Source: a virus
Taxonomy: Duplodnaviria; Heunggongvirae; Uroviricota; Caudoviricetes
Strand: one strand, 5' to 3'
Length of the DNA stretch: 47,550 bases
IMG/VR virus record: IMGVR_UViG_2534681704_000008
Of this stretch, positions 670 to 47,550 are shown piece after piece. A program made the position numbers and the translations under genes. A model generated the notes under the pieces. It saw only the letters and a program-made list of their open reading frames with translations. It made no database searches and was not told the DNA's origin. Each line of letters starts with the position of its first letter. Within the stretch, counting starts at the first letter, position 1.

Positions 670-917
670 TAAGCCAGGAGACTATTGATCAATAATACTG
701 CGTCATAAGAAATCTCTATTAGACAAAGTAGACGCTCCTTCCACATGCGCCACAAGAAACCTCTATTCCAGTGACACAATTACGCCTGATTATTTCCCTA
801 GCCCGGAATATGAATAAAAACATCAACAAAGATTAAATTATTCAAACGTTACTGTTGCGTCTGCGGTCGTAACAACATCCGACGTGGTGATGTGTATCAA
901 ATGAGGCCTCTGATGAT

Positions 918-1051
918 CAGAGGGTTTATCGCGTATACGGATCGTGGATGGCAGAAAACTTTCAGAATCAGGTTTCCATTTTAAACCAGAAATTGAGTGA
1001 GTTTGCCCCATCCATGCCCCACGCGGTGAGATCGGATGTAATTAACAACAG
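918..1051 (+). pseudogene. Relic 3' end of a tyrosine integrase gene (about 45 C-terminal codons, no start)
   Basis: Translation ...QRVYRVYGSWMAENFQNQVSILNQKLSEFAPSMPHAVRSDVIN closely parallels the C-terminus of the intact integrase at 46255-47550 (...VYRVYGSWMAENNQDQVLILNQKLSEFAPSMPHAVGTDDY). Confidence 0.55.
984..1024. repeat. attL core: 41-bp direct repeat identical to 47488-47528
   Basis: aaccagaaattgagtgagtttgccccatccatgccccacgc occurs identically at both ends; flanks are homologous but diverged. Confidence 0.7.
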
Positions 1052-1185
1052 GTTACAAAACCTACACCTGCATGCTCATCATATGAGCATACATTTTTCA
1101 TAATCGACAAAGATCGTCCAAGAGCGCACCAAATAACAGATGGTTAGAGTCGTCGAAAACATCAGTCGTCTAAGTTCGCCTTAGA

Positions 1186-1222
1186 ACGAGTGCTGTTTTA
1201 TGCCCCATCCATGCCCCATCAC
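1186..1222. repeat. Degenerate third copy of the att core
   Basis: gagtgctgttttatgccccatccatgcccca shares a 17-bp identical block (gccccatccatgcccca, 1202-1218) with the att core; abuts the stop codon of the UmuD'-like gene. Confidence 0.45.
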
Positions 1223-1608
1223 ATCACCGGGCAGTCGTCGAACTCGCCAGAGCGAGCATCGTTGATGCTGTAGGTGATCACCCCAAACACCGGACGCGAT
1301 GTATCTGACACTTCGTCCTTCAAAGGTAACGGCTCCCTCCTTACATTTTCAGGGTTTTCCAGATAAGGCTGCGGATGCGTTCTGTAGCGCATGATCCTGA
1401 ACTCACCATCAACAGCGCAGACGAGCAGAGAACCGTCTTTCGGTGTTAGCGATGAATCGACGATGAGCATGGCGCCCTTCATGATTCCAGCGCGAAGGTA
1501 TGTCGCGCCAGCTATCATCATGTACGTGGCTGAAGGATGCGCGATAAGCCTCTTGTCGAGTGATATGCGATCTTCAACGTAGTCTGCTGCCGGGCTCGGG
1601 AATCCCAT
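1219..1608 (-). CDS. UmuD'-like protein (S24 peptidase fold, pre-truncated, catalytic dyad apparently substituted)
   Basis: 129 aa starting MGFPSPAADYVE, equivalent to UmuD' after Cys24-Gly25 autocleavage; aligns to UmuD through LIVDS/VDGEF/VFGV; GDSM replaced by GATY and VKKL by IMRY; GGAGGTG RBS; no in-frame start upstream before a stop. Confidence 0.7.
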   Translation of the reverse strand: MGFPSPAADYVEDRISLDKRLIAHPSATYMMIAGATYLRAGIMKGAMLIVDSSLTPKDGSLLVCAVDGEFRIMRYRTHPQPYLENPENVRREPLPLKDEVSDTSRPVFGVITYSINDARSGEFDDCPVM

Positions 1609-1625
1609 GATGCACCTCCGATGGT

Positions 1626-1645
1626 TACTGTATATGCATACAGTA
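1626..1645. promoter_or_regulatory. LexA (SOS) box in the divergent promoter region
   Basis: tactgtatatgcatacagta: perfect CTGT-N8-ACAG palindrome, 18-37 nt upstream of the UmuD'-like start codon. Confidence 0.75.
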
Positions 1646-1721
1646 TTACTGATCGGCGGTATCGATCAATAGCGTTTGTGGTGCTACACTTCAGACCTTT
1701 CCGAATTCACTGATTTCTATA

Positions 1722-2084
1722 ATGTTAAAGTTATTCGCCAAGTACACATCAATAGGCATCATCAACACGCTCATCCATTGGGTTGTGTTCGCCATATGCA
1801 TCTACGCATTCCATACTGGTCAGGCGCTTGGCAATTTTGCCGGTTTTGTTGTCGCTGTATCATTCAGCTTCTTCGCAAATGCCAGATTCACCTTTAAGTC
1901 ATCAACCACGACCCTGCGTTACATGTTGTATGTCGGATTTATGGGCACGCTAAGCGCTGCGATTGGCTGGATTGCTGATAAGTCAGGCATGGCGCCTGTA
2001 GTCACGTTAATCGTGTTCTCCGCAATCAGTCTGGTTTGCGGTTTCATTTATTCAAAATTCATTGTCTTTAGGGATGCGAAATGA
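1722..2084 (+). CDS. gtrA: GtrA bactoprenol-glucose flippase
   Basis: 120 aa, [23 protein letters not shown], four predicted TM helices; overlaps gtrB start. Confidence 0.85.
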
Positions 2085-2998
2085 AAATTTCTCTGGTCGT
2101 TCCTGTCTTCAACGAAGAAGACGCGATACCTATTTTTTATAAAACTGTTCGGGAATTTGAAGGACTTCAGCAACATGAAGTTGAGATAGTCTTCATAAAT
2201 GACGGAAGCAAAGACGCGACAGAATCAATCATAAACACGCTGGCTATTGCCGATCCGCTTATTGTTCCTCTGTCTTTCACGCGCAACTTTGGCAAGGAAT
2301 CAGCACTCTTTGCCGGCCTTGACCATGCAACTGGTGAAGCGGTTATCCCTATTGACGTTGACTTGCAAGATCCCATAGAAGTCATCCCGCACCTGATTGA
2401 GAAGTGGCAGCAGGGTTCGGATATGGTTCTGGCTAAGCGCTCTGACCGCTCAACTGATAGCCGACTGAAGCGTAAGTCAGCTGAGTGGTTTTATAAGCTT
2501 CACAACAAAATAAGCAACCCGAAAATTGAAGAGAACGTAGGCGATTTCCGGCTTATGTCTCGCGAAGTTGTTGAAAACATCAAGCTCATGCCAGAACGTA
2601 ATCTATTCATGAAAGGTATCTTGAGCTGGGTTGGCGGCAGAGCAGACGTTGTTGAATACGCTCGCGCAGAACGCGTTGCGGGAAATACAAAATTCAACGG
2701 GTGGAAACTGTGGAACCTTGCCCTTGAGGGTATAACTAGCTTCTCAACATTCCCTCTGCGCGTATGGACGTACATAGGGCTTATCGTTGCTGGCATAGCG
2801 TTTATCTACGGCGCATGGATGATCATCGATACGCTGGCATTTGGTAATGCTGTGCGCGGATATCCATCTCTACTTGTCTCCATCCTGTTCCTTGGGGGAG
2901 TGCAACTTATTGGGATTGGCGTTCTTGGTGAATATATTGGAAGAATATATATCGAGTCTAAAAAGCGACCTAAATACATTCTAAGGAAGATGAAATGA
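2081..2998 (+). CDS. gtrB: GtrB bactoprenol glucosyltransferase (GT2)
   Basis: 305 aa; N-terminal GT2 signature ([11 protein letters not shown]...DGSKD...DVDLQDP) and C-terminal TM helices. Confidence 0.9.
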
Positions 2999-4557
2999 GT
3001 TCGCGTGTTGGATTAATATCAATCTTTATTGTGTTTTTATTGGTGTTAATAATTCAATTGTTAACACCATTTCACTCTGATGATTTCGGTTTTTATCTGA
3101 AAGGGTACTCATTCGAGACCCTGCATCATGTTTACATGACGTGGAGCGGAAGGCTGTTCTCCGATTTTACTGGAAGCCTTGTAATGTCCATCAAGGACAA
3201 AACAATAATTTCATTTATAAATGCATGTGCTTTTACATCGTTAATTGTCGTTTTAACAAAGCTACCGCTTGAAAACAAAAACAACTGGCCTGTTTTTATT
3301 CTGTTGTTCATGCTTTATTGGATCGACAACCCAAGTTTGAGCCAGACAAGCTTCTGGGTAGTAGGCTCTGCTAACTATCTATGGACTAATCTCTTAGCCT
3401 ATTCATGGTTATATCTTTACTTCAGGTATGGTTCAACTTCAGATGTAAAAATGAAAGCTTTGTTATTGCTAATGGCTTTCATAACAGGCATGACAACAGA
3501 GAATCTAAGCACTTCAATATTCGGTGTTTTGTTCCTCTACAATGCCTTAAATTTCTATATAGAACGAAAAATAAACTGGTTATCTGTTTCTCAAATGCTG
3601 TTGCTGCTTGCAGGTGTTGGGGTATTACTACTTGCTCCAGGTAACTTTGTGAGGTCATCATCTTGTTGTTTTGATTTTTATTCCCAGCCTCTGATTACAA
3701 GGATAACAAATCATTTCCCCGGTAAGTTCATATCAGAAATGATGGAGTACAAGCATGTTATTGTTCTAACTGTCATTTCAATTGGTTATGGGCTATATAA
3801 AAAGAAAGATATGACGTTACCATTACTTTTTGTAATTGGTGCAATAGCTTCAAACGCCATGCTGTTCGCCTCACCAACAAATACAGGTAGAGTGTTAAAC
3901 ACGGGGTTGGTAATGATGTTGGCATCTCTTTCCTTTGCTTTGAGTTCAATATCTGAATTCAAGGCAAGTAAATTTCTAATTTATGTTGCATCTATTTTAT
4001 CTTTGGTTCTTTTTGCTCAGTCGTATGCTAACAATTACCAAAGCATAAAGAGTGTGTTTGCTCAGGATCAGATCAGAACGCAGATGATAAAAGACGGGTA
4101 TGATGCCATTCCATACTTTTATCAAGGAAGCATAGAGAAAGAATCAGATAAGCTTGACATATTTTTTAATTCAAGCGCTATTTCTAAATTTTATGGAGCA
4201 ACAAAGGATGTTGGCTTAATCGATCTTCCTTTTGATTATTCTTTGATGACGCAACAAAAGACAAATATTAATGATAGCTATTTCATTAACTTCAGGAAGC
4301 TTGACGACGTATTCCTTTTTGAAGTATCAAACCCTGATGTTAAATTTGAAAACTATATTTTGTTTTTCAGATTAACAATGGATGATGGTAGCGTTGAGAA
4401 TCATGATTTCATACCTGTTCTACGTAATTATAAAGGACATTTGTATTTGAACTCATGGAAAGTTGATACAAAAGGTAAAGAAATAAAGTTATTCGAGATT
4501 GGATTCTACGATCCGGCACTTAAGAAAAATGTAAGGTCTGTCAGCGTCCCTATGTAA
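2995..4557 (+). CDS. gtrC: GtrC-type serotype-specific O-antigen glucosyltransferase (polytopic membrane protein)
   Basis: 520 aa, many TM segments, low GC, immediately downstream of and overlapping gtrAB. Confidence 0.65.
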
Positions 4558-4565
4558 AAAAATAG

Positions 4566-4607: not shown

Positions 4608-6551
4608 TTATGCACCTTTAATCATAATCCACTTCCCGCCAGATGAATCTGAAACAGTAAATACTGCTGAAGATAGAGCTGGTAAAGGGTAAGGGGTGTT
4701 TATCCCTAAACCTAATATTTGTTGACCTAACGTAGGATAAATGTTTATAGAATTAGCGGAAACATTTGCTATCTGTACACTATAACCAGTGCCAACATCA
4801 GTAGTCGATGGTAGTTTCGCTCCAGTTCCAGGGCCACTAGCATTAACAGTAACACACCCTGCTGTTACACCATATCCTGCCGCGCCAGATTGACCGCCTC
4901 CAGTTCCAGTGATTGATGCTACAGGTAAATTGCTTGCCTTAACTACTTTGCGAACAACCTGTGAATAACCACCTGAAATGGTGATGTCAATATCATCAGT
5001 ACTATGAGGAGTTCCATCAAATGCGGTTGGGGTGGTAGCGACTGAGTATCCTCTAACCCTGACGCTGTTATAACCTGCGCTATCTCCAAAATAAACTGCA
5101 TTCTGATCTTGTCCATTTGCGATAACATCTATTACCGCCCCTGAGACTCCACCAAACCCTCCACCAAATGTAATTCCTGTGGACAATGGAAGCCCAATAC
5201 CCTTGTACTCTTCACCGATGTAACATGAGATTCGTGGATTTGAACCCAGCAAAACTATATTAGAGCCAGCCCACGGATAATAAACCTTGCAAGACTCACT
5301 CAAAGTAAAGTTGTTTGCCTCTACGAATACGTTTGTATCAGCACCTTCGAAATGTGAGGTATTAAATTCATTCCCTTCGGCTGGCCTGCTTACTTTTAGC
5401 GCATATTTAGATCGTAAGTCGCTCGCACTGGTCCAGCAGTGTATTCCTGACCATCGTGCATTTCCTTTCTCTATCCAGAGACCTGAGTAAGTACTCGCAG
5501 TCTTCTGCCCTGAGCTGATGATAATAACATCATTAACCACACTATCGTGCGGCCCTGCAAATCTCCAGCCATCCTCCCCACTTTTATCGATAACAATTTT
5601 ACTGAATGAGCCTTCCATGCCACCATCAGCATTGCCTGAATCAGCCCATTCTGTTCTTAATCCGTTCTTGCCTGCGTTGATGATATTGACCTTATCGATT
5701 CTGGTTCTTGGACCATAAATAGCTATAGCAGAACCATTCGGGCTATTTGCTTTATCTGCATCAATGGAGAGGTTTTCAACAATAATTCCATCTTCACCAA
5801 GTAAAGAGTTAGTACCCCAGAGAGAATTTGAGTTAGCGCCATAGAGTAATGCGTTCACTGAACCAGCTAACAGCTTGAGTTTAGTTCTCTCCTGCCCCTG
5901 TCCTCTGATTGTTGTTTTTGAATAAAGCGTAAGCGGGCCGGTTAATGTTGTGCCAGCAGGAACTATGCACGGTTTTCCCGTTAATTTATTTTCTTCTATT
6001 GCTGCCTGAAAGTTAACAGTATCTACTGTTACACCATCACATATACAGCCCCAGCCGCGAATATCTCCCTCATCTCTCCAGCGCGCAATCTGAAGCTCAG
6101 GGTATTTTACCGCACCATCAGGATCTGATATTTGTCTACGAAGAACATCACTGACATCAACAGGCTGCCATTTCCCATCACCAGTCCCGCCAGCAGAAGA
6201 TGGGGTAGAACCTGGCGGGACACTTTTTGGTAATGTCTCCAGGTCATCCCATCGGTACCAAATATCCGTACTCTCATCCTGGAGAAGGTCTCCAGCTGAC
6301 GTCACAGTGCCGCCATCCTGGAAAGATCCCCTCAGGTTCCATCCAAGGTTGTATATCTGCTGAAGCACTAACTGCTTCAGGCCTTCAATTGTATAGTGTG
6401 CTTTGCCAAAGCGATCAATGTATTGCTGAGAAATTGTGGTGACAAACTCGTCAATTTTCGCACCACCGAATACATGATCGCGAATATCAGGGCTTGGTAC
6501 AGGGTTTTGCGTCGGAGTTGGTACCGGGATGTTTGCGTATGAATCGGCCAT
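4608..6551 (-). CDS. Tailspike / side tail fiber with beta-helix (pectate-lyase-like) domain
   Basis: 647 aa; Gly/Ser/Thr/Asn-rich beta-helix-type composition; last gene of the tail module, next to gtr. Confidence 0.65.
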   Translation of the reverse strand: MADSYANIPVPTPTQNPVPSPDIRDHVFGGAKIDEFVTTISQQYIDRFGKAHYTIEGLKQLVLQQIYNLGWNLRGSFQDGGTVTSAGDLLQDESTDIWYRWDDLETLPKSVPPGSTPSSAGGTGDGKWQPVDVSDVLRRQISDPDGAVKYPELQIARWRDEGDIRGWGCICDGVTVDTVNFQAAIEENKLTGKPCIVPAGTTLTGPLTLYSKTTIRGQGQERTKLKLLAGSVNALLYGANSNSLWGTNSLLGEDGIIVENLSIDADKANSPNGSAIAIYGPRTRIDKVNIINAGKNGLRTEWADSGNADGGMEGSFSKIVIDKSGEDGWRFAGPHDSVVNDVIIISSGQKTASTYSGLWIEKGNARWSGIHCWTSASDLRSKYALKVSRPAEGNEFNTSHFEGADTNVFVEANNFTLSESCKVYYPWAGSNIVLLGSNPRISCYIGEEYKGIGLPLSTGITFGGGFGGVSGAVIDVIANGQDQNAVYFGDSAGYNSVRVRGYSVATTPTAFDGTPHSTDDIDITISGGYSQVVRKVVKASNLPVASITGTGGGQSGAAGYGVTAGCVTVNASGPGTGAKLPSTTDVGTGYSVQIANVSANSINIYPTLGQQILGLGINTPYPLPALSSAVFTVSDSSGGKWIMIKGA

Positions 6552-30871: not shown

Positions 30872-31273
30872 TTATTTCAATTCGTAGATGAGGCAATCAA
30901 CGATTTCAAGACCGTTCACCATAGAGTTAGTTAAACGAATCGTGCTATTGCTGATCCTAGAAAATCCTTTAAGCATCTTATATAGATAATCATTATCGCC
31001 TTTAGCTTCGATTGTATCCAAAGGGATTGGCTTGTACTTTTTCGAAACGCTATTTCTGTTTATGTCACTGATTTTCTTATAAACATATGCTGGCCCTCGT
31101 TCTTGAATTTCTTTTATTACCAACATATATCGCCATGATAGATCTGGATAATAGAACCACAATGCGGCATCAACAGTTAAATTCTCTGCTTTCAATTTTT
31201 TTAACAAAAATTGTCCGGAGAACTCCATGTCTTTAGTCAACTCCCTGCCGACTACCAGTGTGTTTTTAACCAT
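30872..31273 (-). CDS. Hypothetical protein, partner of the HEPN-like gene
   Basis: 133 aa, Lys-rich, very low GC; 22-nt overlap with the upstream gene. Confidence 0.5.
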   Translation of the reverse strand: MVKNTLVVGRELTKDMEFSGQFLLKKLKAENLTVDAALWFYYPDLSWRYMLVIKEIQERGPAYVYKKISDINRNSVSKKYKPIPLDTIEAKGDNDYLYKMLKGFSRISNSTIRLTNSMVNGLEIVDCLIYELK

Positions 31274-31668
31274 TTCAAAACTCCAGATTGTTGGTCACCT
31301 ACAGCATCAATAAGTTGTTCTGACAATGCTCTAGTTATGTTGGTATCGTAACGAAACTGCTCACTCCAGTCTTTCACGACAGTCCAGTTTATTTCTAACG
31401 ATGCATCATTTCTTGAGTCGGCAATCAACATTTGATGTAAGTTAGCGATCTTCAGAAGTTTCGATAAATCATGAGTGTAGGAATCGTTCACTGTGGTCTT
31501 GTTAGGGAATTCATGTTGCAAAAATGTCTTTGCAATACAAGCCTTGAGCGCACATTCCACAGCATAACCACAAAGATAATAGGCACCATGGTATAACCCA
31601 TTAGCAAATAAACATTTAGCTTCGTCAAATCTAATGGTAGACAAGGATTCAAGATCATTCTTAGTCAT
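31252..31668 (-). CDS. HEPN-like domain protein (candidate toxin/abortive-infection effector)
   Basis: 138 aa; N-terminal helix FDEAKCLFANGLYHGAYYLCGYAVECALKACIAK is HEPN-like; low GC; no canonical Rx4-6H seen. Confidence 0.5.
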   Translation of the reverse strand: MTKNDLESLSTIRFDEAKCLFANGLYHGAYYLCGYAVECALKACIAKTFLQHEFPNKTTVNDSYTHDLSKLLKIANLHQMLIADSRNDASLEINWTVVKDWSEQFRYDTNITRALSEQLIDAVGDQQSGVLKWLKTHW

Positions 31669-32446: not shown

Positions 32447-33136
32447 TCACACCATCCCGTTCGACTTGTTTCGGTTGTACTTCGCCAGCAGCAGCTGGAT
32501 CGGCGTCGGACCGTGCTCGGCAGCCGGTGCTGCAATTGCCCGGCGTACCGGCGGCACAGGCTTACCCTCGGTGACGCGCTTCTCCCACATGTCCAGCAAA
32601 TCGCCTGCCTCGCGTGCCAGCTCACCATGCGTTAACTGGCGCTCAGTGCTGCGGTGGCGCAATTCTACGCAAATGTGGTACATGACCGGCTGCGACCATG
32701 GAAATTGCTCGCTGGAGGTGAATTCGAACGAACGGTTACGCCAGTCCCAGTATTCGGCGATCACCTGGTCAACGTTGATTCCTAGCGCCCCGCCACTCTG
32801 TTTGCACCAGGCGACGAACTGGCCCGGCGACGGCAGGAATGGGCGCTCCTGGCGGCGGGCAATGCGCATACCGGCATCGACTTGCGCCATTGAGTGGATC
32901 CCGTTCTCCTGAAACGCCAGCAGCCACTGACGGCGGAATTCGTTCAGGTCGTCCTGGGTGCGGAAGTTCGCCATGCTGGCCGGGAACGCGGCACGCAGTT
33001 CGTTGAACAGCTTGTTGAATACCTGCGCCACCTGCTCTACTGGCGCCCGCTCCTGGTACTGATCTGGCAGGTTATGGGCCATGCGGCTCATCTGCTCGCG
33101 GTCATGGTTACGCATCTGCTCTGCAAGAGATTTCAT
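32447..33136 (-). CDS. P: Replication protein P (helicase loader)
   Basis: 229 aa; RPFLPSPGQFVAWC and FDREQMSRMAHNLPDQY closely resemble lambda P. Confidence 0.85.
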   Translation of the reverse strand: MKSLAEQMRNHDREQMSRMAHNLPDQYQERAPVEQVAQVFNKLFNELRAAFPASMANFRTQDDLNEFRRQWLLAFQENGIHSMAQVDAGMRIARRQERPFLPSPGQFVAWCKQSGGALGINVDQVIAEYWDWRNRSFEFTSSEQFPWSQPVMYHICVELRHRSTERQLTHGELAREAGDLLDMWEKRVTEGKPVPPVRRAIAAPAAEHGPTPIQLLLAKYNRNKSNGMV

Positions 33137-34098
33137 CGGATCACCCCATAGGCCCAGTCAGTGTTGTTGAAGTCCAGTTCCTGCTTGACGGCGCGCTGCT
33201 CACCACCAGCGCTGCGCTGCATCGTCAGCTTGTCCCACTGCTTACGCAGGCTTTCCGGGCTCAGGATGTTGGTCTGCCAGAAGTGGTGTTTGCTGGCCCA
33301 GTCATACAGCGCGCAGATATCCTGGTGCGACCGGTTATCTATCTGTCGCATCAGGCGAACGGTGTTAGACCAGGAGGTCATGTCCGGGGCTTTGCAGGTT
33401 GGGTTAATCAGCTTCACCCTTGTGGAAATCCACTGGGCGGTTTTTAGGTCTTCAGCCGATCCCCACTTCGCACCGGATGGTGTGTAGATCGCAGCTTCAG
33501 GATGAGCTGATAAAAATTTCTTCAGGCGTGCGTCTGAGGATTCGCCAGAATTCTCGGACGAAGATCTTTTAATGTTTTTATTGTTGTTATTACATTGTTG
33601 TTCATGATTCTCGGTGAAACGCTCGGATAAATGCGCGCAGTTATGCGCGGCATCACCTTCCGAAGCCGCACCATCACTGGCTTCGCCATGCTCGGCATTA
33701 AGCGCGGAGATATGCGCGGTGAAACGCTCGGGTGGATTGTCCATTTTTTGAGCATATTCAGCGTAATTTGTGATGGTTATCACAGAGCCTTTTCGCTTCT
33801 CTCCGGAGCGGGAAATCATTCCTTCACGCTCGAAAACATCAAGCATCCTGTCGACGGCGTGGCGACTGCATGGCTTCCCTTCCCTGTCGCATAAATTCAG
33901 CCCGAGATCGGCTGAGGTGGTGACCAGTTGTCCGGTTTGCAGCGGCCATTGGCGCCCCTTGAAGTTTGCCGTGTATGGCTGGCGGGCAGCACACAGCAGC
34001 AGGTTTTCCCACAGCGTGCGCAGGAAGACGTCCTTCGACCAGGTTTGCTTAAGAACACTCCGGTACAACGGGATGAATCCGGTTTTCTGGTTCTCCAT
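33133..34098 (-). CDS. O: Replication initiator O
   Basis: 321 aa from MENQKTGFIPLYR (ATG 34098, AGGAGC RBS; the ORF-track start at 34155 is GTG); contains ori repeats and an Asn-rich AT-rich linker. Confidence 0.75.
   Translation of the reverse strand: MENQKTGFIPLYRSVLKQTWSKDVFLRTLWENLLLCAARQPYTANFKGRQWPLQTGQLVTTSADLGLNLCDREGKPCSRHAVDRMLDVFEREGMISRSGEKRKGSVITITNYAEYAQKMDNPPERFTAHISALNAEHGEASDGAASEGDAAHNCAHLSERFTENHEQQCNNNNKNIKRSSSENSGESSDARLKKFLSAHPEAAIYTPSGAKWGSAEDLKTAQWISTRVKLINPTCKAPDMTSWSNTVRLMRQIDNRSHQDICALYDWASKHHFWQTNILSPESLRKQWDKLTMQRSAGGEQRAVKQELDFNNTDWAYGVIR
33550..33740. repeat. Putative replication origin inside O (iteron-like repeats plus AT-rich tract)
   Basis: GGTGAAACGCTCGG at 33612-33625 and 33717-33730; (A/T)ATGCGCGG three times; adjacent AT-rich tract 33551-33600. 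Confidence 0.55.
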
Positions 34099-34283
34099 CC
34101 GGTTGCTCCTGGCGGCTGAGTGCGCCGCGAAATTAGCGTAAGCGACGTTCGACACAGTTAAACCTCCTGCGCCTGGCGTTTTGGATTAGCGTTTGTCATA
34201 ATGACCTCGCAATTGACTGACGTTTGTTGCACCAGAAAGTCGGTTCTGTTCGCGCAGACCGGCTTTCGCCATTTCTGTATTTC

Positions 34284-34778
34284 TCACATAACCCCCAGCA
34301 TTGATGTAACCATCGTCATCAGTGGCCCTACCTGCTCCGGCATGAGGCGGAACAGCGAAGCTATACCCTCGCTTACCTCTTTCAGCTTCTGATGCTCTGG
34401 AGCGTCCAGCAGCACAGCCTGTTTAGCCTCTGCGAGTTCTTTCTCGGCTTCAGCCAGGCGAGACATTTTGCAATCGGCACCGATCAGGCGAGTGCGATAC
34501 TCAACCGGCAGCACGGCCATGATTGCTGGCGTCAGCTGGCGCACGTTCTCGCGGTACTGCTCGGAGTCGAAACGGTTGTCCAGAAAGCGGAACAGCTTCT
34601 GGCGGGCCCGGCTGATGTCTTCCGGGAAGCTGATAGCGGTCCCGCCCTGCTCCCGGTATTCGTTGATGATCAGCGCCGAAACGACGTCCTGATTGTCCAG
34701 CGCCGACGACCATGCCCGGACCGCATCGCGGATCTTTTCGTGGTCCGGCGCCGCCTTAGGTTGAGCGCGGTTTATCAT
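34284..34778 (-). CDS. YdaT-like protein
   Basis: 164 aa from MINRAQPK; EYREQGG and LTPAIMAVLPVEYRTRL resemble E. coli Rac YdaT. Confidence 0.6.
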   Translation of the reverse strand: MINRAQPKAAPDHEKIRDAVRAWSSALDNQDVVSALIINEYREQGGTAISFPEDISRARQKLFRFLDNRFDSEQYRENVRQLTPAIMAVLPVEYRTRLIGADCKMSRLAEAEKELAEAKQAVLLDAPEHQKLKEVSEGIASLFRLMPEQVGPLMTMVTSMLGVM

Positions 34779-34843
34779 CGCTCCCGGGTGTATTCCGGTA
34801 TTGTGTTGATACGCAAGTGAATGCATTGCTTTCCCTTTCGTGG

Positions 34844-35077
34844 TTAGGCCGCAGTATCACGCGGCGATGCGAATACCAGGCTTTCTTTGAGGACCGGAGC
34901 CTGACGGTGAAAATTCTTCGTGCCTTTCTCGATAGCAGATGCCATTTCTGGAGATGCCCGGCGATTTCCGTAGGCGATCTGGTCCAGGTAACCTGGCGTC
35001 GTGTTAGCCAACTTTGCGAGCTGCGCCCATTCGTCGGTAGTGGCGGCCTTGCGCCAGCGGTGTAGTTCAGTGCTCAT
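34844..35077 (-). CDS. Cro-like repressor (YdaS/Cro HTH family)
   Basis: 77 aa, divergent from cI across the operator region. Confidence 0.7.
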   Translation of the reverse strand: MSTELHRWRKAATTDEWAQLAKLANTTPGYLDQIAYGNRRASPEMASAIEKGTKNFHRQAPVLKESLVFASPRDTAA

Positions 35078-35109
35078 TGTTGTCTCCGGGTGAGTCGTTT
35101 GATTTGGAG

Positions 35110-35174
35110 TTTAGCGTTATGCTAAATACTACGCAAGCATCATTTAGCAATTTGCACATTTATCATTTTGCTAA
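35110..35174. promoter_or_regulatory. OR operator cluster between cro and cI
   Basis: 17-bp palindrome TTTAGCgttatGCTAAA (35110-35126) plus weaker copies at about 35143-35159 and 35158-35174. Confidence 0.6.
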
Positions 35175-35193
35175 AAGAAGTAACAATGCAGGG

Positions 35194-35871
35194 ATGGAAA
35201 ATAAAGAAATCAGAAAAGCCAACCTGGAAGCGCTGTATGAGAAGCGCCAGCACGAGTCTGGAATGACCAAGGCACAGTTCGCCGAGCTCATCGAGACAAG
35301 TCCGGCTGCGCTTAGCCAGCTACTGGGACCAAACCCTCATCGCAATATCGGCGATAAGATGGCTCGCAAAATTGAATCTGCGCTTGATCTGCCTTTTGGC
35401 TGGATGGATGTTTTACACGCCAGTGAAGAACCTTCGAACGTTGCATTTCGAGGACTGAACGAGACAAAAGGAAGTTATCCTGTAATCAGCTGGGTAAGTG
35501 CGGGGCAATGGATGGAAGCTGTAGAACCTTATCACCGAAGAGCGATTGATCGCTGGTATGACACTACCGTTGTCTGCTCAGACGATTCATTCTGGCTGGA
35601 CGTTAAAGGGGATTCTATGACCTCCCCGGCCGGGCTGAGCATTCCTGAGGGAGCGGCTATTTTAGTTGATCCTGAAATCGAGCCACGCAATGGGAAGTTG
35701 GTTGTAGCGAAGCTTGAAGGCGATAACGAAGCGACCTTTAAGAAGCTTGTAATTGATGCCGGCAGACGCTTCCTTAAGCCACTTAACCCCGCATATCCAA
35801 TGATAGAGGTTAATGGCAACTGCAAAATTATCGGCGTTGTTGTTGATGCGAAGATACTAAACATCCCATAA
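35194..35871 (+). CDS. cI: CI repressor (HTH plus S24 LexA-like autopeptidase)
   Basis: 225 aa from MENKEIRK; intact catalytic Ser (GDSM) and Lys (FKKL). Confidence 0.85.
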   Translation: MENKEIRKANLEALYEKRQHESGMTKAQFAELIETSPAALSQLLGPNPHRNIGDKMARKIESALDLPFGWMDVLHASEEPSNVAFRGLNETKGSYPVISWVSAGQWMEAVEPYHRRAIDRWYDTTVVCSDDSFWLDVKGDSMTSPAGLSIPEGAAILVDPEIEPRNGKLVVAKLEGDNEATFKKLVIDAGRRFLKPLNPAYPMIEVNGNCKIIGVVVDAKILNIP

Positions 35872-41850: not shown

Positions 41851-42510
41851 ATGACCGAAAAATACGCTCTTATCTACGCAGATCCTCCCTGGTCTTACGG
41901 CAACACCATCAGCAATGGCGCCGCTGCCGACCACTATTCCACCATGAAGCTAATCGACATCAAACGCCTGCCAGTCTGGGAACTTGCCGCCGAAAACGCT
42001 GTGCTGGCGATGTGGTACACCGGCACGCATAACCAGGAGGCGATCGAACTGGCCGAGGCCTGGGGCTTTACCGTTCGCACTATGAAAGGCTTTACCTGGG
42101 TGAAGCTGAACCAGAACGCCGAACTGCGCATCAACAAGGCGCTGGCTGAGGGTGAGGTCATCGACTTTTACGACTTCCTCGATCTGCTTAACGCCGAGAC
42201 TCGCATGAATGGCGGCAACCACACCCGGGCCAATACTGAAGACCTGCTGATAGCTACCCGCGGCGCCGGGCTGGAACGTAAGCACGCCGGGATTAAGCAG
42301 GTGGTGTACAGCCCACTCGGCGCGCACAGCGAAAAGCCGTGGGAAGTTCGGCACCGGCTGGAGCTGCTTTATGGAGATGTGCCGCGCATTGAGCTATTTA
42401 GCCGCAGCGCGGCGCCGGGCTGGGATCACTGGGGGAATCAGTGCGCCACCGCCGCGGTGGAACTGCTTCCCGGCTGCGCCATCGATGTTGTGAAAACGGA
42501 GGCCGCATGA
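41851..42510 (+). CDS. N6-adenine DNA methyltransferase, MT-A70-like
   Basis: 219 aa with the DPPW catalytic motif (YADPPWSYGN) near the N-terminus. Confidence 0.75.
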   Translation: MTEKYALIYADPPWSYGNTISNGAAADHYSTMKLIDIKRLPVWELAAENAVLAMWYTGTHNQEAIELAEAWGFTVRTMKGFTWVKLNQNAELRINKALAEGEVIDFYDFLDLLNAETRMNGGNHTRANTEDLLIATRGAGLERKHAGIKQVVYSPLGAHSEKPWEVRHRLELLYGDVPRIELFSRSAAPGWDHWGNQCATAAVELLPGCAIDVVKTEAA

Positions 42511-46254: not shown

Positions 46255-47550
46255 ATGGCTAAGTCAGCATACCCAACAGGCGTGGAGAATCATGGCGGTA
46301 CGCTCCGCATATGGTTCATCTATAAAGGCAGCCGGGTGCGTGAAAGCCTCGGCGTGCCGGATACACCAAAAAATAGAAAAGTAGCTGGCGAGTTACGCGC
46401 GTCGGTGTGCTTCGCGATAAAGACAGGCAACTTCAACTATGCCGCACAGTTCCCTGACTCGCCGAACCTGAGAAGATTTGGGGTGGAGAGCAAGGAAATC
46501 ACCGTGCTCGAACTGGCGAACAAGTGGCTTGAACTGAAGCGTATGGAGATCAGCACCAACGCGATGTCACGTTATACATCTATAACGCGCAATATGGTAC
46601 CGCGGATCGGCGGAGACAGGCTGGTATCTGCGGTGACGCAGGAAGACCTGCTGTTTATCAGAAAGGAACTGCTGACCGGGTATCAGACGCTGAAGGCTGG
46701 ACACAAAACACCAGTTAAAGGCCGCACAGTCAGAACGGTCAACAACTACATGAAGACCATGGCTGGCATGTTCAAGTTCGCTGCTGAAAGTGGTTATGTG
46801 AAGGTGAGCCCTTTCACCGGGATCGCCCTTCTCAAGCGTTCGCGTTGCGAGCCTGATCCGCTCACCCGCGATGAGTTTGTCAGGCTGATTAACGCTTGCG
46901 CCACCCAGCAGTTGAAAAACATGTGGTCGCTGGCAGTGTACACCGGCGTGCGCCACGGTGAACTGGTGTCGCTGGCCTGGGAAGATATCGACCTGAAAGC
47001 AGGAACGATGATGATCCGCCGAAACCACACGTTGACGAAGGAGTTTACCCTTCCGAAAACCGAGGCTGGGACAAACCGCATCATCAACCTTATTCAGCCA
47101 GCTATTGACGTGCTGAAGAACCAGGCCGAATTAACCCGCCTGGGTAAGCAGTATCAGGTAGAGGTGAAACTGCGTGAGTTTGGTCGCACAGAAGTGCATC
47201 CGTGCACATTCGTGTTTAACCCACAAAAAGGATTGCGCAATGGCCGTGCAGGGCATCATTACGCAGTGGGGTCGATCAACCAGTCGTGGGAGGCAGCAAT
47301 GCGACGCGCCGGGATTCGCTATCGCAGAGCATACCAGTCCCGACACACGTATGCATGCTGGTCGTTGGCCGCCGGTGCTAACCCGAACTTCATCGCGAAG
47401 CAAATGGGCCACACCGACGCACAAATGGTTTACCGGGTGTACGGATCCTGGATGGCTGAAAATAACCAGGACCAGGTACTCATCCTCAACCAGAAATTGA
47501 GTGAGTTTGCCCCATCCATGCCCCACGCAGTGGGAACGGATGATTATTAA
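46255..47550 (+). CDS. int: Tyrosine integrase (lambda Int family)
   Basis: 431 aa, AGGAGGG RBS; catalytic region RHTYACWSLAAGANPNFIAKQMGHTDAQMVYRVY; the 3' end contains the att core. Confidence 0.9.
   Translation: MAKSAYPTGVENHGGTLRIWFIYKGSRVRESLGVPDTPKNRKVAGELRASVCFAIKTGNFNYAAQFPDSPNLRRFGVESKEITVLELANKWLELKRMEISTNAMSRYTSITRNMVPRIGGDRLVSAVTQEDLLFIRKELLTGYQTLKAGHKTPVKGRTVRTVNNYMKTMAGMFKFAAESGYVKVSPFTGIALLKRSRCEPDPLTRDEFVRLINACATQQLKNMWSLAVYTGVRHGELVSLAWEDIDLKAGTMMIRRNHTLTKEFTLPKTEAGTNRIINLIQPAIDVLKNQAELTRLGKQYQVEVKLREFGRTEVHPCTFVFNPQKGLRNGRAGHHYAVGSINQSWEAAMRRAGIRYRRAYQSRHTYACWSLAAGANPNFIAKQMGHTDAQMVYRVYGSWMAENNQDQVLILNQKLSEFAPSMPHAVGTDDY
47488..47528. repeat. attR core: 41-bp direct repeat identical to 984-1024, inside the int 3' end
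   Basis: Exact identity with 984-1024. Confidence 0.7.

What the first reader, a model, noticed from the sequence alone, without database searches (positions are those of the whole stretch)
33550..33740. Origin-like iterons and AT-rich tract inside the O gene
Two 14-bp GGTGAAACGCTCGG repeats and three (A/T)ATGCGCGG elements lie next to an AT-rich tract, all within the O coding region where lambda places its origin. The repeats encode a repeated HLSERFT segment and an Asn-rich linker.
Basis: partly seen in the sequence, partly recalled or inferred. Interest (0 to 1): 0.25.

Follow-up and report, generated by a model that had tools for sequence, protein, structure and literature searches.

The report
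Phage replication origin inside O gene
This is almost certainly the replication origin of a lambda-like prophage, sitting inside its initiator gene where expected, but it is built from eight tightly packed 12-bp direct repeats in two blocks around a conserved central element, not from lambda's four palindromic sites.

Summary
They form two blocks of four (33731-33684 and 33650-33603) separated by a 33-bp central element. A 38-bp AT-rich tract (33602-33565) follows, then the palindrome that lambda and phi80 also carry to the right of their AT-rich regions. All of this lies in the disordered linker of an O-family initiator. Its C-terminal half is 88% identical to phi80 gp15, and the adjacent P protein is 96% identical to phi80 gp14. 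In 77 unique relatives, synonymous codon choice inside the units is fixed while the encoded amino acids vary, so selection acts on the DNA. At least six iteron cores each go with different residues in the stretch that aligns with the start of the predicted recognition helix. The block–spacer–block–AT-rich layout and the central dyad stay the same throughout. No paper describing this layout was found. Verdict: a lambdoid origin and a new variant of a known kind. Function rests on comparison only; nothing has been tested experimentally.

The parts
33133..34155 (-). O-family replication initiator gene. It is 340 aa from the GTG at 34155, or 321 aa from the alternative ATG at 34098. Residue numbers in this report use the 321-aa form.
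   Evidence: ORF listed. Pfam Phage_rep_O 4.3e-13, residues 19-131 of the 340-aa ORF submitted (= residues 1-112 in the 321-aa numbering). Closest proteins are 93-96% identical 'replication protein' entries from Enterobacter. Both starts have a Shine-Dalgarno-like sequence upstream, and the BHUENT6 homologue lacks the internal Met.
33748..34098 (-). Coding sequence for the N-terminal winged-helix-like DNA-binding domain (residues 1-117). The predicted recognition helix is 79-91, with His80 encoded at 33861-33859.
   Evidence: AF2 model topology is H19-36, three strands, H62-67, H79-91, wing E95-100/E104-109, with pLDDT 62-82. Foldseek hits are only weak winged-helix regulators, E >= 0.018. Codon-position conservation of 1.74/1.87/1.17 is typical of protein-level selection.
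33732..33753 (-). Conserved A-tract lead, GCTCAAAAAATGGACAATCCAC, just upstream of block A.
   Evidence: Third codon positions are as conserved as the first two (1.72/1.84/1.78) in 83 relatives. It is not conserved in distant relatives.
33684..33731 (-). Iteron block A, four head-to-tail 12-bp units: A1 33731-33720, A2 33719-33708, A3 33707-33696, A4 33695-33684.
   Evidence: The pooled logo from 77 unique arrays is C-C-G-M-G-C-A-T followed by 4 variable bases. Synonymous sites are fixed.
33651..33683 (-). Conserved 33-bp central element. The dyad arms are GAAGCC (33684-33679; its first G, 33684, is the last base of iteron A4) and GGCTTC (33667-33662).
   Evidence: The length is constant at 33 bp in the 4+4, 4+3 and 3+3 arrays. 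The arms are 81% Watson-Crick paired, against at most 39% in shifted registers. It is constrained at the DNA level and retained in relatives with different iteron cores.
33603..33650 (-). Iteron block B, four head-to-tail 12-bp units: B1 33650-33639, B2 33638-33627, B3 33626-33615, B4 33614-33603.
33565..33602 (.). AT-rich tract and presumed DNA-unwinding element. It is A-rich on the coding strand and encodes QQCNNNNKNIK.
   Evidence: GC is 0.20-0.30. It is the least stable 40-mer of the O region and lies in the least stable ~0.1% of the window. It is homologous in position to the AT-rich regions of lambda, phi80 and P22.
33531..33560 (.). Right-arm palindrome, CGTCCGAGAATTC-TGGC-GAATCCTCAGACG.
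   Evidence: The terminator scan found a 13-pair stem (G-T pairs allowed by the scan). The same sequence lies to the right of the AT-rich tract in lambda and phi80. A lambda-ori primer in PMC7466680 carries it.
33133..33588 (-). Coding sequence for the phi80-type C-terminal domain of O, the presumed P-binding module.
   Evidence: 92% DNA identity to phi80 gene 15. 88% amino-acid identity over residues 161-321. 47% identity to the lambda O C-terminal half.
32447..33136 (-). Lambda-P-family helicase loader gene. It overlaps the O stop codon.
   Evidence: Pfam Phage_lambda_P 1.1e-49. 96% identical to phi80 gp14.

Best explanation
The segment 33531-33753 is the vegetative replication origin of a lambdoid (P22-like/phi80-like mosaic) prophage, probably from Enterobacter. 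It is embedded in the linker-coding part of the phage's own initiator gene.

The proposed mechanism has three steps. First, the N-terminal winged-helix domain of the O-like protein binds the eight 12-bp iterons (core CCG(A/C)GCAT). All eight point the same way, in two blocks of four on either side of a conserved 33-bp dyad element. Second, the resulting nucleoprotein complex strains and melts the adjacent 38-bp AT-rich tract. Third, the phi80-type C-terminal domain of O recruits the P protein with host DnaB to the opened DNA. Transcription from the early rightward promoter runs through the origin, as in lambda.

What is shown: the repeat anatomy, the DNA-level selection on it, its positional homology to the lambda, phi80 and P22 origins, and the coupling between iteron core and initiator residues.

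What is inferred: O binding, its stoichiometry (probably one domain per 12-bp unit), unwinding, helicase loading, and any role for the central element.
For: Position. The window is homologous to phi80 up to the AT-rich tract, and the annotated gp15 sites of phi80 lie just upstream of that point. The lambda and P22 origins occupy the same place in their O/18 genes.

Repeat anatomy. There are eight phased units, and the phased pattern is found only here (4 hits against 0.17 expected). Across 179 unique relatives the linker DNA shows a lag-12 autocorrelation of 0.44, against at most 0.31 at other lags and 0.25 in N-domain coding DNA.

DNA-level selection. Within the units, His is CAT in 370/371 cases against 31% elsewhere in the same genes. 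Pro is CCC in 231/232 against 15%, Glu is GAG in 247/247 against 46%, Leu is CTT in 63/63 against 13%, and Asn is AAT in 57/57 against 28%. The encoded residues meanwhile vary: P/A/T/S/G at slot 1 and H/R/L/N/Q at slot 3. The usual relaxation of third codon positions (1.17 in the N-domain) is absent throughout the origin segment.

Specificity coupling. Residue 80 lies at the start of the predicted recognition helix. It is His in all 43 unique domains with CCGMGCAT cores and Asp in all 8 with CCGCACAT cores. Three loci fetched afterwards fitted this rule. More distant relatives with other residues at the aligned position (SPQ, SAK, T[P/Q]KQ, PRMA) carry other 12-bp cores in the same layout.

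Orientation. 536 cores face forward and 1 faces backward.

Unwinding element and partners. The AT-rich tract is the stability minimum of the O region. P is 96% identical to phi80 gp14 and the O C-terminal half is 88% identical to gp15.

Background on lambda. The lambda origin lies within O, comprises iterons plus a 40-bp AT-rich region, and is activated by PR transcription, with O-P-DnaB assembly (PMC5043065; PMC7466680).
Against: There is no experimental evidence for binding or firing in this phage or in any relative that I could find.

In the window itself only 3 of the 8 units match the full 8-bp consensus. B4 (CCGAGAAT) and B2 (GCGCGCAT) deviate from it.

The His80/Asp80 correlation reflects a single evolutionary event, because the Asp clade is monophyletic.

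The structural model is weak overall (mean pLDDT 56.8). Foldseek found no match at E <= 0.001, and no solved structure matches by sequence.

A 12-bp head-to-tail spacing is unlike the 19-bp dyad iterons bound by lambda O dimers, so the binding mode cannot simply be carried over from lambda.

The conserved central element has no assigned role. The prophage could be defective.
Confidence: 0.8

Rival explanations
1. The repeats are only a repetitive, low-complexity protein linker (a four-residue periodic peptide plus an Asn-rich stretch) with no cis-acting DNA role.
For: The segment encodes a region predicted to be disordered (pLDDT below 40 for residues 120-191). A 12-nt period equals exactly four codons, so a peptide repeat would give the same periodicity.
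Against: Amino acids at the repeat slots vary freely, while synonymous positions are fixed against the gene's own codon bias (for example CAT 370/371 against 31%, and CCC 231/232 against 15%). Third codon positions are as conserved as, or more conserved than, the first two only in this segment.
Confidence: 0.03
2. The array is a cis site for a different process, such as a partition or centromere-like site, a regulatory operator, or a recombination hotspot that marks the mosaic joint, and replication starts elsewhere.
For: The mosaic joint with phi80 falls at the AT-rich tract. Several relatives carry a ParB-like HTH gene directly upstream of O. The central dyad does not co-vary with the initiator.
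Against: The array is present whether or not the ParB-like gene is there, and the window lacks that gene. The repeat core changes together with the O N-domain, not with neighbouring genes. The iterons / AT-rich / palindrome order copies the lambda and phi80 origins. No promoter-like site was found in 33000-35200.
Confidence: 0.05
3. The sequence is a genuine origin type, but in this particular prophage it is a silent relic of a defective element that no longer replicates.
For: Nothing in the window demonstrates inducibility. Some units deviate from consensus.
Against: The O and P genes, the CI-like repressor, the Cro-like and cII-position genes, the integrase and the tailspike are all intact ORFs. 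The array differs from 77 related arrays only in ways that respect the consensus.
Confidence: 0.1

Closest known systems
Bacteriophage lambda origin (ori-lambda) with the O protein
   Same: The origin lies inside the initiator gene, between the DNA-binding and P-binding halves. Initiator-site repeats are followed by an AT-rich tract of about 40 bp and then the same GAGAATTCTGGCGAATCC palindrome. The N-domain belongs to Pfam Phage_rep_O. The C-terminal half is 47% identical to lambda O. The partner is a lambda-P-family protein.
   Different: Lambda has four 18-19-bp imperfect inverted repeats at 20-24-bp spacing, each binding an O dimer. Here there are eight 12-bp direct repeats, all in one orientation, split 4+4 by a conserved 33-bp element that lambda lacks. 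The N-domains do not align by BLASTP.
Phage phi80 origin with gp15/gp14
   Same: The right half is essentially the same DNA: 92% identity from the AT-rich tract to the end of O. The O C-terminal half is 88% identical and P is 96% identical. A YdaT-family protein occupies the cII position in both.
   Different: The phi80 gp15 sites are four dyad-symmetric GGGAA..TTCCC elements about 21 bp apart. The N-domain and the iterons of the window are unrelated to them.
Phage P22 origin in gene 18
   Same: The origin is annotated inside the O-like gene, with repeats followed by an A-rich tract. Some relatives of the window's initiator (the Stx2a phage and L188-type loci) carry a short proline/glycine-rich segment right after the AT-rich tract that resembles the one in P22 gene 18, and the Stx2a phage has a DNA helicase gene next to it.
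   Different: The P22 repeats are TCGGTAAAAC/TTTACCGA-type units at roughly 21-bp spacing. There is no protein similarity to the window's O.
Iteron origins of plasmids (RepA, pi and TrfA types)
   Same: These are arrays of directly repeated, replicon-specific initiator sites next to an AT-rich unwinding region (review PMC5043065).
   Different: From my own knowledge, not tested here: plasmid iterons are typically 17-22 bp at roughly 22-bp spacing. They lie in intergenic DNA, often alongside DnaA boxes. Here the units are 12 bp, abut one another, and lie inside the initiator's reading frame.
Stx-phage 'Eru2' replication module (Llarena et al. 2021, PMC8044961)
   Same: The paper describes a Phage_rep_O-containing replication protein paired with a DnaB-type helicase in Stx phages. 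The Stx2a phage relative used here has that gene pair.
   Different: Identity between Eru2A and this family was not checked directly. The paper does not use the terms 'iteron', 'origin of replication', 'direct repeat' or 'AT-rich' at all (0 occurrences each).

Membership tests
Lambdoid phage origin (ori-lambda type) | The origin lies within the initiator (O) gene, between the segments coding for the N-terminal DNA-binding and C-terminal P-binding domains | tested here: met
   The array lies at residues 123-165 of the 321-aa O. That is after the Phage_rep_O domain and before the phi80/lambda-like C-terminal half.
Lambdoid phage origin (ori-lambda type) | Multiple repeated initiator-binding sites (iterons) | tested here: inconclusive
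   The repeats are present, phased, constrained at the DNA level and coupled to initiator residues. Binding itself cannot be tested with these tools.
Lambdoid phage origin (ori-lambda type) | Each iteron is an imperfect inverted repeat of about 19 bp, bound by an O dimer | tested here: not met
   The units are 12 bp and head-to-tail. 536 cores face forward and 1 faces backward. The CCGCACAT variant has no self-complementarity. Arrays with odd unit counts per block (3+3) or unequal blocks (4+3) exist.
Lambdoid phage origin (ori-lambda type) | An adjacent AT-rich region of about 40 bp on the downstream side | tested here: met
   33565-33602, with GC 0.20-0.30. It is the stability minimum of the region.
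Lambdoid phage origin (ori-lambda type) | A cognate P-type helicase loader encoded immediately downstream | tested here: met
   Phage_lambda_P 1.1e-49. 96% identical to phi80 gp14.
Lambdoid phage origin (ori-lambda type) | Replication actually initiates here, dependent on O, P and transcription | not testable with these tools
   This needs replicon cloning, marker-frequency analysis or 2D gels.
phi80 origin specificity class (gp15 sites) | GGGAA-N-TTCCC gp15-binding repeats and a gp15-type N-domain | tested here: not met
   There is no similarity upstream of 33588. The N-terminal halves do not align. The phi80 sites have a different sequence.
Pfam Phage_rep_O initiator family | The N-terminal domain scores above the curated Pfam threshold | tested here: met
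   50 bits against a cut-off of 28.7, E = 4.3e-13.
Plasmid-type iteron origin | 17-22-bp direct repeats at about 22-bp spacing in intergenic DNA, usually with DnaA boxes | tested here: not met
   The period is 12 bp and the array is intragenic. By eye I saw no convincing DnaA box, but no formal scan was run.

The most novel reading that the evidence does not exclude
A branch of the O-initiator family uses a distinct origin layout. That branch comprises 255 clusters at 50% identity. At least six iteron specificities were seen here, in Enterobacter, Klebsiella, Escherichia, Salmonella, Xenorhabdus, Pantoea and others.

The layout has two blocks of abutting 12-bp head-to-tail iterons, probably one winged-helix domain per helical turn. 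Between them is an invariant-length 33-bp element whose dyad (AAGCC...GGCTT) is conserved at the DNA level even where iteron specificity has changed.

This would imply a second, conserved reader of the origin.
Probability: 0.3. Interest if true: 0.55.

Novelty: new variant of a known kind. Interest (0 to 1): 0.35.

Why it matters
Lambda's origin is the textbook model for how an initiator opens DNA. This family keeps lambda's right half (AT-rich tract, palindrome, P-binding domain, P) but swaps the left half for a different grammar. That makes it a natural experiment in how differently arranged initiator sites can drive the same unwinding and helicase-loading steps.

The family includes Stx2a-converting phages and prophages of Klebsiella, Enterobacter and Salmonella. 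Defining its origin and specificity residues would help with three things:
- annotating origins in prophages;
- predicting replication incompatibility or cross-activation between co-resident prophages;
- designing origin-decoy or recoding experiments.

The strict DNA-level constraint inside a coding region is also a clean example of overlapping codes.

Tried and rejected
- **RNA and promoter scans.** Rfam at gathering thresholds and tRNA scans of the whole window found nothing. The promoter scan of 33000-35200 found none. Its three terminator-like hits did not exceed the shuffle expectation, and the best one is the ori palindrome, not a terminator.
- **Structure.** A PDB sequence search with O gave no hit. 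The AF2 model was only moderately confident in the two folded domains. Foldseek against PDB gave only weak winged-helix hits, none at E <= 0.001. The fold assignment is therefore suggestive only.
- **Central dyad as a hairpin or paired element.** The arms are 81% Watson-Crick paired with a few compensatory changes, but many sequences break a pair, so this is inconclusive.
- **Central element as an inverted iteron.** It contains GCGCGG, but that does not change to GTGCGG in the CCGCACAT clade, so this was rejected.
- **IHF or DnaA-box matches in the spacer and lead.** None was convincing by eye. No formal scan was run.
- **His80/Asp80 as independent covariation.** The Asp clade is monophyletic, so this counts as one event.
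- **Isolated CCGMGCAT 8-mers elsewhere in the window.** Ten were found against 5.4 expected, scattered along the window. There are no secondary sites.
- **Literature.** Six full-text searches found no description of 12-bp CCGCGCAT/CCGCACAT iterons or of a split iteron origin in O-family phages. Older subscription-journal papers are not in that library.
- **P0164.** A scan of viral contigs found no loci.

Full report
**Observation.** The flagged interval lies inside a 340-aa ORF on the minus strand (33133-34155; an internal ATG at 34098 gives a 321-aa form, whose numbering I use). Its N-terminus matches Pfam Phage_rep_O (E 4.3e-13), and a lambda-P-family gene follows it.

Both 14-mers are present exactly, at 33613-33626 and 33718-33731. 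Only two exact WATGCGCGG copies lie in the interval, and the third is AATGCGCGC. The AT-rich tract is real (GC 0.20-0.30). It is the least stable 40-mer of the O region and falls in the least stable ~0.1% of the whole window. The repeated peptide is ERFT rather than HLSERFT.

**True anatomy.** Read on the coding strand, the pieces fall into register as eight head-to-tail 12-bp units:
- Block A (33731-33684): CCGAGCGTTTCA, CCGCGCATATCT, CCGCGCTTAATG, CCGAGCATGGCG.
- A 33-bp spacer (33683-33651).
- Block B (33650-33603): CCGCGCATAACT, GCGCGCATTTAT, CCGAGCGTTTCA, CCGAGAATCATG.
- The A-rich tract (33602-33565).
- A palindrome with 13-bp arms (33560-33531).

A phased two-unit pattern matches four times in 47.5 kb, all of them here, against 0.17 expected. 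Single 8-mers elsewhere occur at chance level.

**Positional homology.** The DNA from the end of O up to 33588 is 92% identical to phi80 gene 15. The phi80 record annotates four gp15-binding sites immediately upstream of that joint. Lambda's annotated iterons, its AT-rich tract and the same GAGAATTCTGGCGAATCC palindrome have the same order and position in its O gene. P22's annotated origin sits in the equivalent place in gene 18.

The O C-terminal half is 88% identical to phi80 gp15 and 47% identical to lambda O. P is 96% identical to phi80 gp14. The N-terminal half and the repeats have no counterpart in phi80, lambda or P22. Instead they match (72% over the whole protein) the O proteins of Klebsiella phages, and more generally those of Stx2a-converting phages, P22-like coliphages and Yersinia phages. 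This is the classical lambdoid mosaic: the N-domain and its iterons travel together, and the recombination joint lies at the AT-rich tract.

**Comparative evidence that the DNA itself is selected.** I fetched 114 related loci. They gave 77 unique, gaplessly alignable 151-nt arrays with the layout of a 22-nt lead, 4x12, 33, 4x12. Versions with 3+3 and 4+3 units keep the 33-nt spacer.

The pooled unit is C-C-G-M-G-C-A-T followed by four nearly free positions. Because 12 nt is four codons, a peptide repeat could in principle explain this, but codon usage rules it out. The table compares codon choice inside the units with the rest of the same genes.

| Amino acid | Codon | Inside units | Elsewhere in the same genes |
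|---|---|---|---|
| His | CAT | 370/371 | 31% |
| Pro | CCC | 231/232 | 15% |
| Glu | GAG | 247/247 | 46% |
| Leu | CTT | 63/63 | 13% |
| Asn | AAT | 57/57 | 28% |

Meanwhile the amino acids at those slots vary: P/A/T/S/G at slot 1 and H/R/L/N/Q at slot 3. Mean conservation at codon positions 1/2/3 is 1.74/1.87/1.17 in the N-domain. It is 1.48/1.29/1.62 in block A, 1.47/1.39/1.39 in the spacer and 1.68/1.58/1.60 in the AT-rich tract. About 220 bp is therefore constrained as DNA on top of the reading frame.

**Coupling to the initiator.** An AF2 model gives a winged-helix-like N-domain (pLDDT 62-82), with a predicted recognition helix at 79-91, a wing at 95-109, and a disordered linker at 120-191 that corresponds to the origin. 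Foldseek hits are all winged-helix regulators but are weak.

Residue 80 is His in all 43 unique domains whose cores are CCG(A/C)GCAT, and Asp in all 8 whose cores are CCGCACAT. Three loci fetched afterwards obeyed this rule. The Asp clade is monophyletic, so this is one event.

More distant relatives extend the pattern. In each, different residues in the stretch aligned with the start of the predicted helix go with a different 12-bp core, in the same block–spacer–block–AT-rich layout:

| Residues aligned with the start of the predicted recognition helix | Iteron core |
|---|---|
| SPQ | (C/G)CGAT(G/A)AAC |
| SAK | G(T/A)CGA(A/G) |
| T(P/Q)KQ | (G/C)AGGTAACAAA |
| PRMA | CCGACCA |

Across 179 unique linkers, lag-12 autocorrelation is 0.44, against at most 0.31 at other lags and 0.25 in control coding DNA. 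All cores point the same way, 536 forward to 1 reverse. A search of 1.84 billion representative proteins found 255 clusters for this N-domain plus linker. Many of them show two sets of four-residue repeats around a K-P/A-S-x-G-A-x-L motif, followed by an Asn/Lys-rich stretch.

**The central element.** The 33-bp spacer has constant length and carries the dyad GAAGCC-N11-GGCTTC. The arms are 81% paired, against at most 39% in shifted registers, with a few compensatory changes and also many breaks.

Its invariant bases (xCC-AG ... G-GCT-T) sit at codon positions where the amino acid changes but the base does not. It persists in relatives with different iteron cores. It does not change from GCGCGG to GTGCGG in the CCGCACAT clade, so it is unlikely to be read by the specificity residues. 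I could not assign it a function.

**Mechanism, and how sure I am.** The most likely reading (about 0.8) is that this is the phage's origin. O N-domains occupy the 12-bp iterons and the complex opens the AT-rich tract. The phi80-type C-domain then brings in P and DnaB, as established for lambda (PMC5043065; PMC7466680). Every step after "the repeats are selected as DNA and track the initiator" is inferred.

Three rivals are less likely:
- A peptide-only repeat is excluded by the codon data.
- A site for another process fits poorly with the coupling to O and the lambda-like order of elements.
- A silent relic cannot be excluded without induction data.

**Comparison and novelty.** It works like ori-lambda and shares the right arm of the lambda and phi80 origins. 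It fails one defining feature of the classical lambdoid iteron, the roughly 19-bp inverted repeat bound by a dimer. It also adds a conserved central element.

Six literature searches found no description of this layout. The one paper dealing with a probably related Stx-phage replication protein does not use the terms iteron or origin of replication at all. I rate it a new variant of a known kind and of moderate interest. The finding as originally stated, an origin inside O, is what one would expect. The 12-bp split-array grammar and the invariant dyad are the parts worth an experiment.

Noticed in passing
window 33651-33683 (dyad arms 33684-33679 and 33667-33662); also L126, L143, L149, L174 and L128 linkers: The 33-bp central element between the iteron blocks is conserved at the DNA level across relatives with different iteron cores and different recognition-helix residues. 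Its function is unknown.
   Followed up: partly
window ~800-4560: This is a low-GC island holding several of the least stable 40-mers in the window. It carries a family-2 glycosyltransferase (2081-2998, +) and a DUF6056 membrane protein (2995-4557, +), next to a tailspike gene (4608-6551, -). It looks like a gtr-type O-antigen-modification cargo.
   Followed up: partly
window 34236-34290: A hairpin at 34236-34266 is followed on the + strand by CGCCATTTCTGTATTTCT, between the cII-position gene and O. It could be the terminator of an oop-like antisense RNA; phi80 has its M3 RNA at this position. Neither the terminator scan nor Rfam called it.
   Followed up: partly
window 34284-34826 (-): The gene at the cII position encodes a 180-aa YdaT_toxin-family protein, the same length as the gene annotated cII at that position in phi80 (180 aa).
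   Followed up: no
window 34098-34155: The O gene has two plausible starts, each with a Shine-Dalgarno-like sequence: GTG at 34155 and ATG at 34098. Databases hold both the 340-aa and the 321-aa forms. A distant homologue lacks the internal Met, which favours the long form.
   Followed up: partly
L001 4017-4814, L004 2517-3314, L123 623-1441, L124 707-1504: Several relatives carry a ParB-like HTH gene directly upstream of O, overlapping its start in three of the four (L001, L004, L124). The window has none.
   Followed up: no
window 31252-31668 (-), 41851-42510 (+), 46255-47550 (+): A HEPN-domain protein lies about 800 bp downstream of the P gene (beyond a small winged-helix gene), and there is an MT-A70 DNA methyltransferase. 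A tyrosine integrase with an Arm-binding domain runs off the right end of the window.
   Followed up: no
window 33771-33786: The palindrome TGTGATGGTTATCACA lies inside the wing-coding VITITN segment, and similar GTGAT..ATCAC arrangements recur in many relatives. Codon choice for a conserved peptide probably explains it.
   Followed up: no
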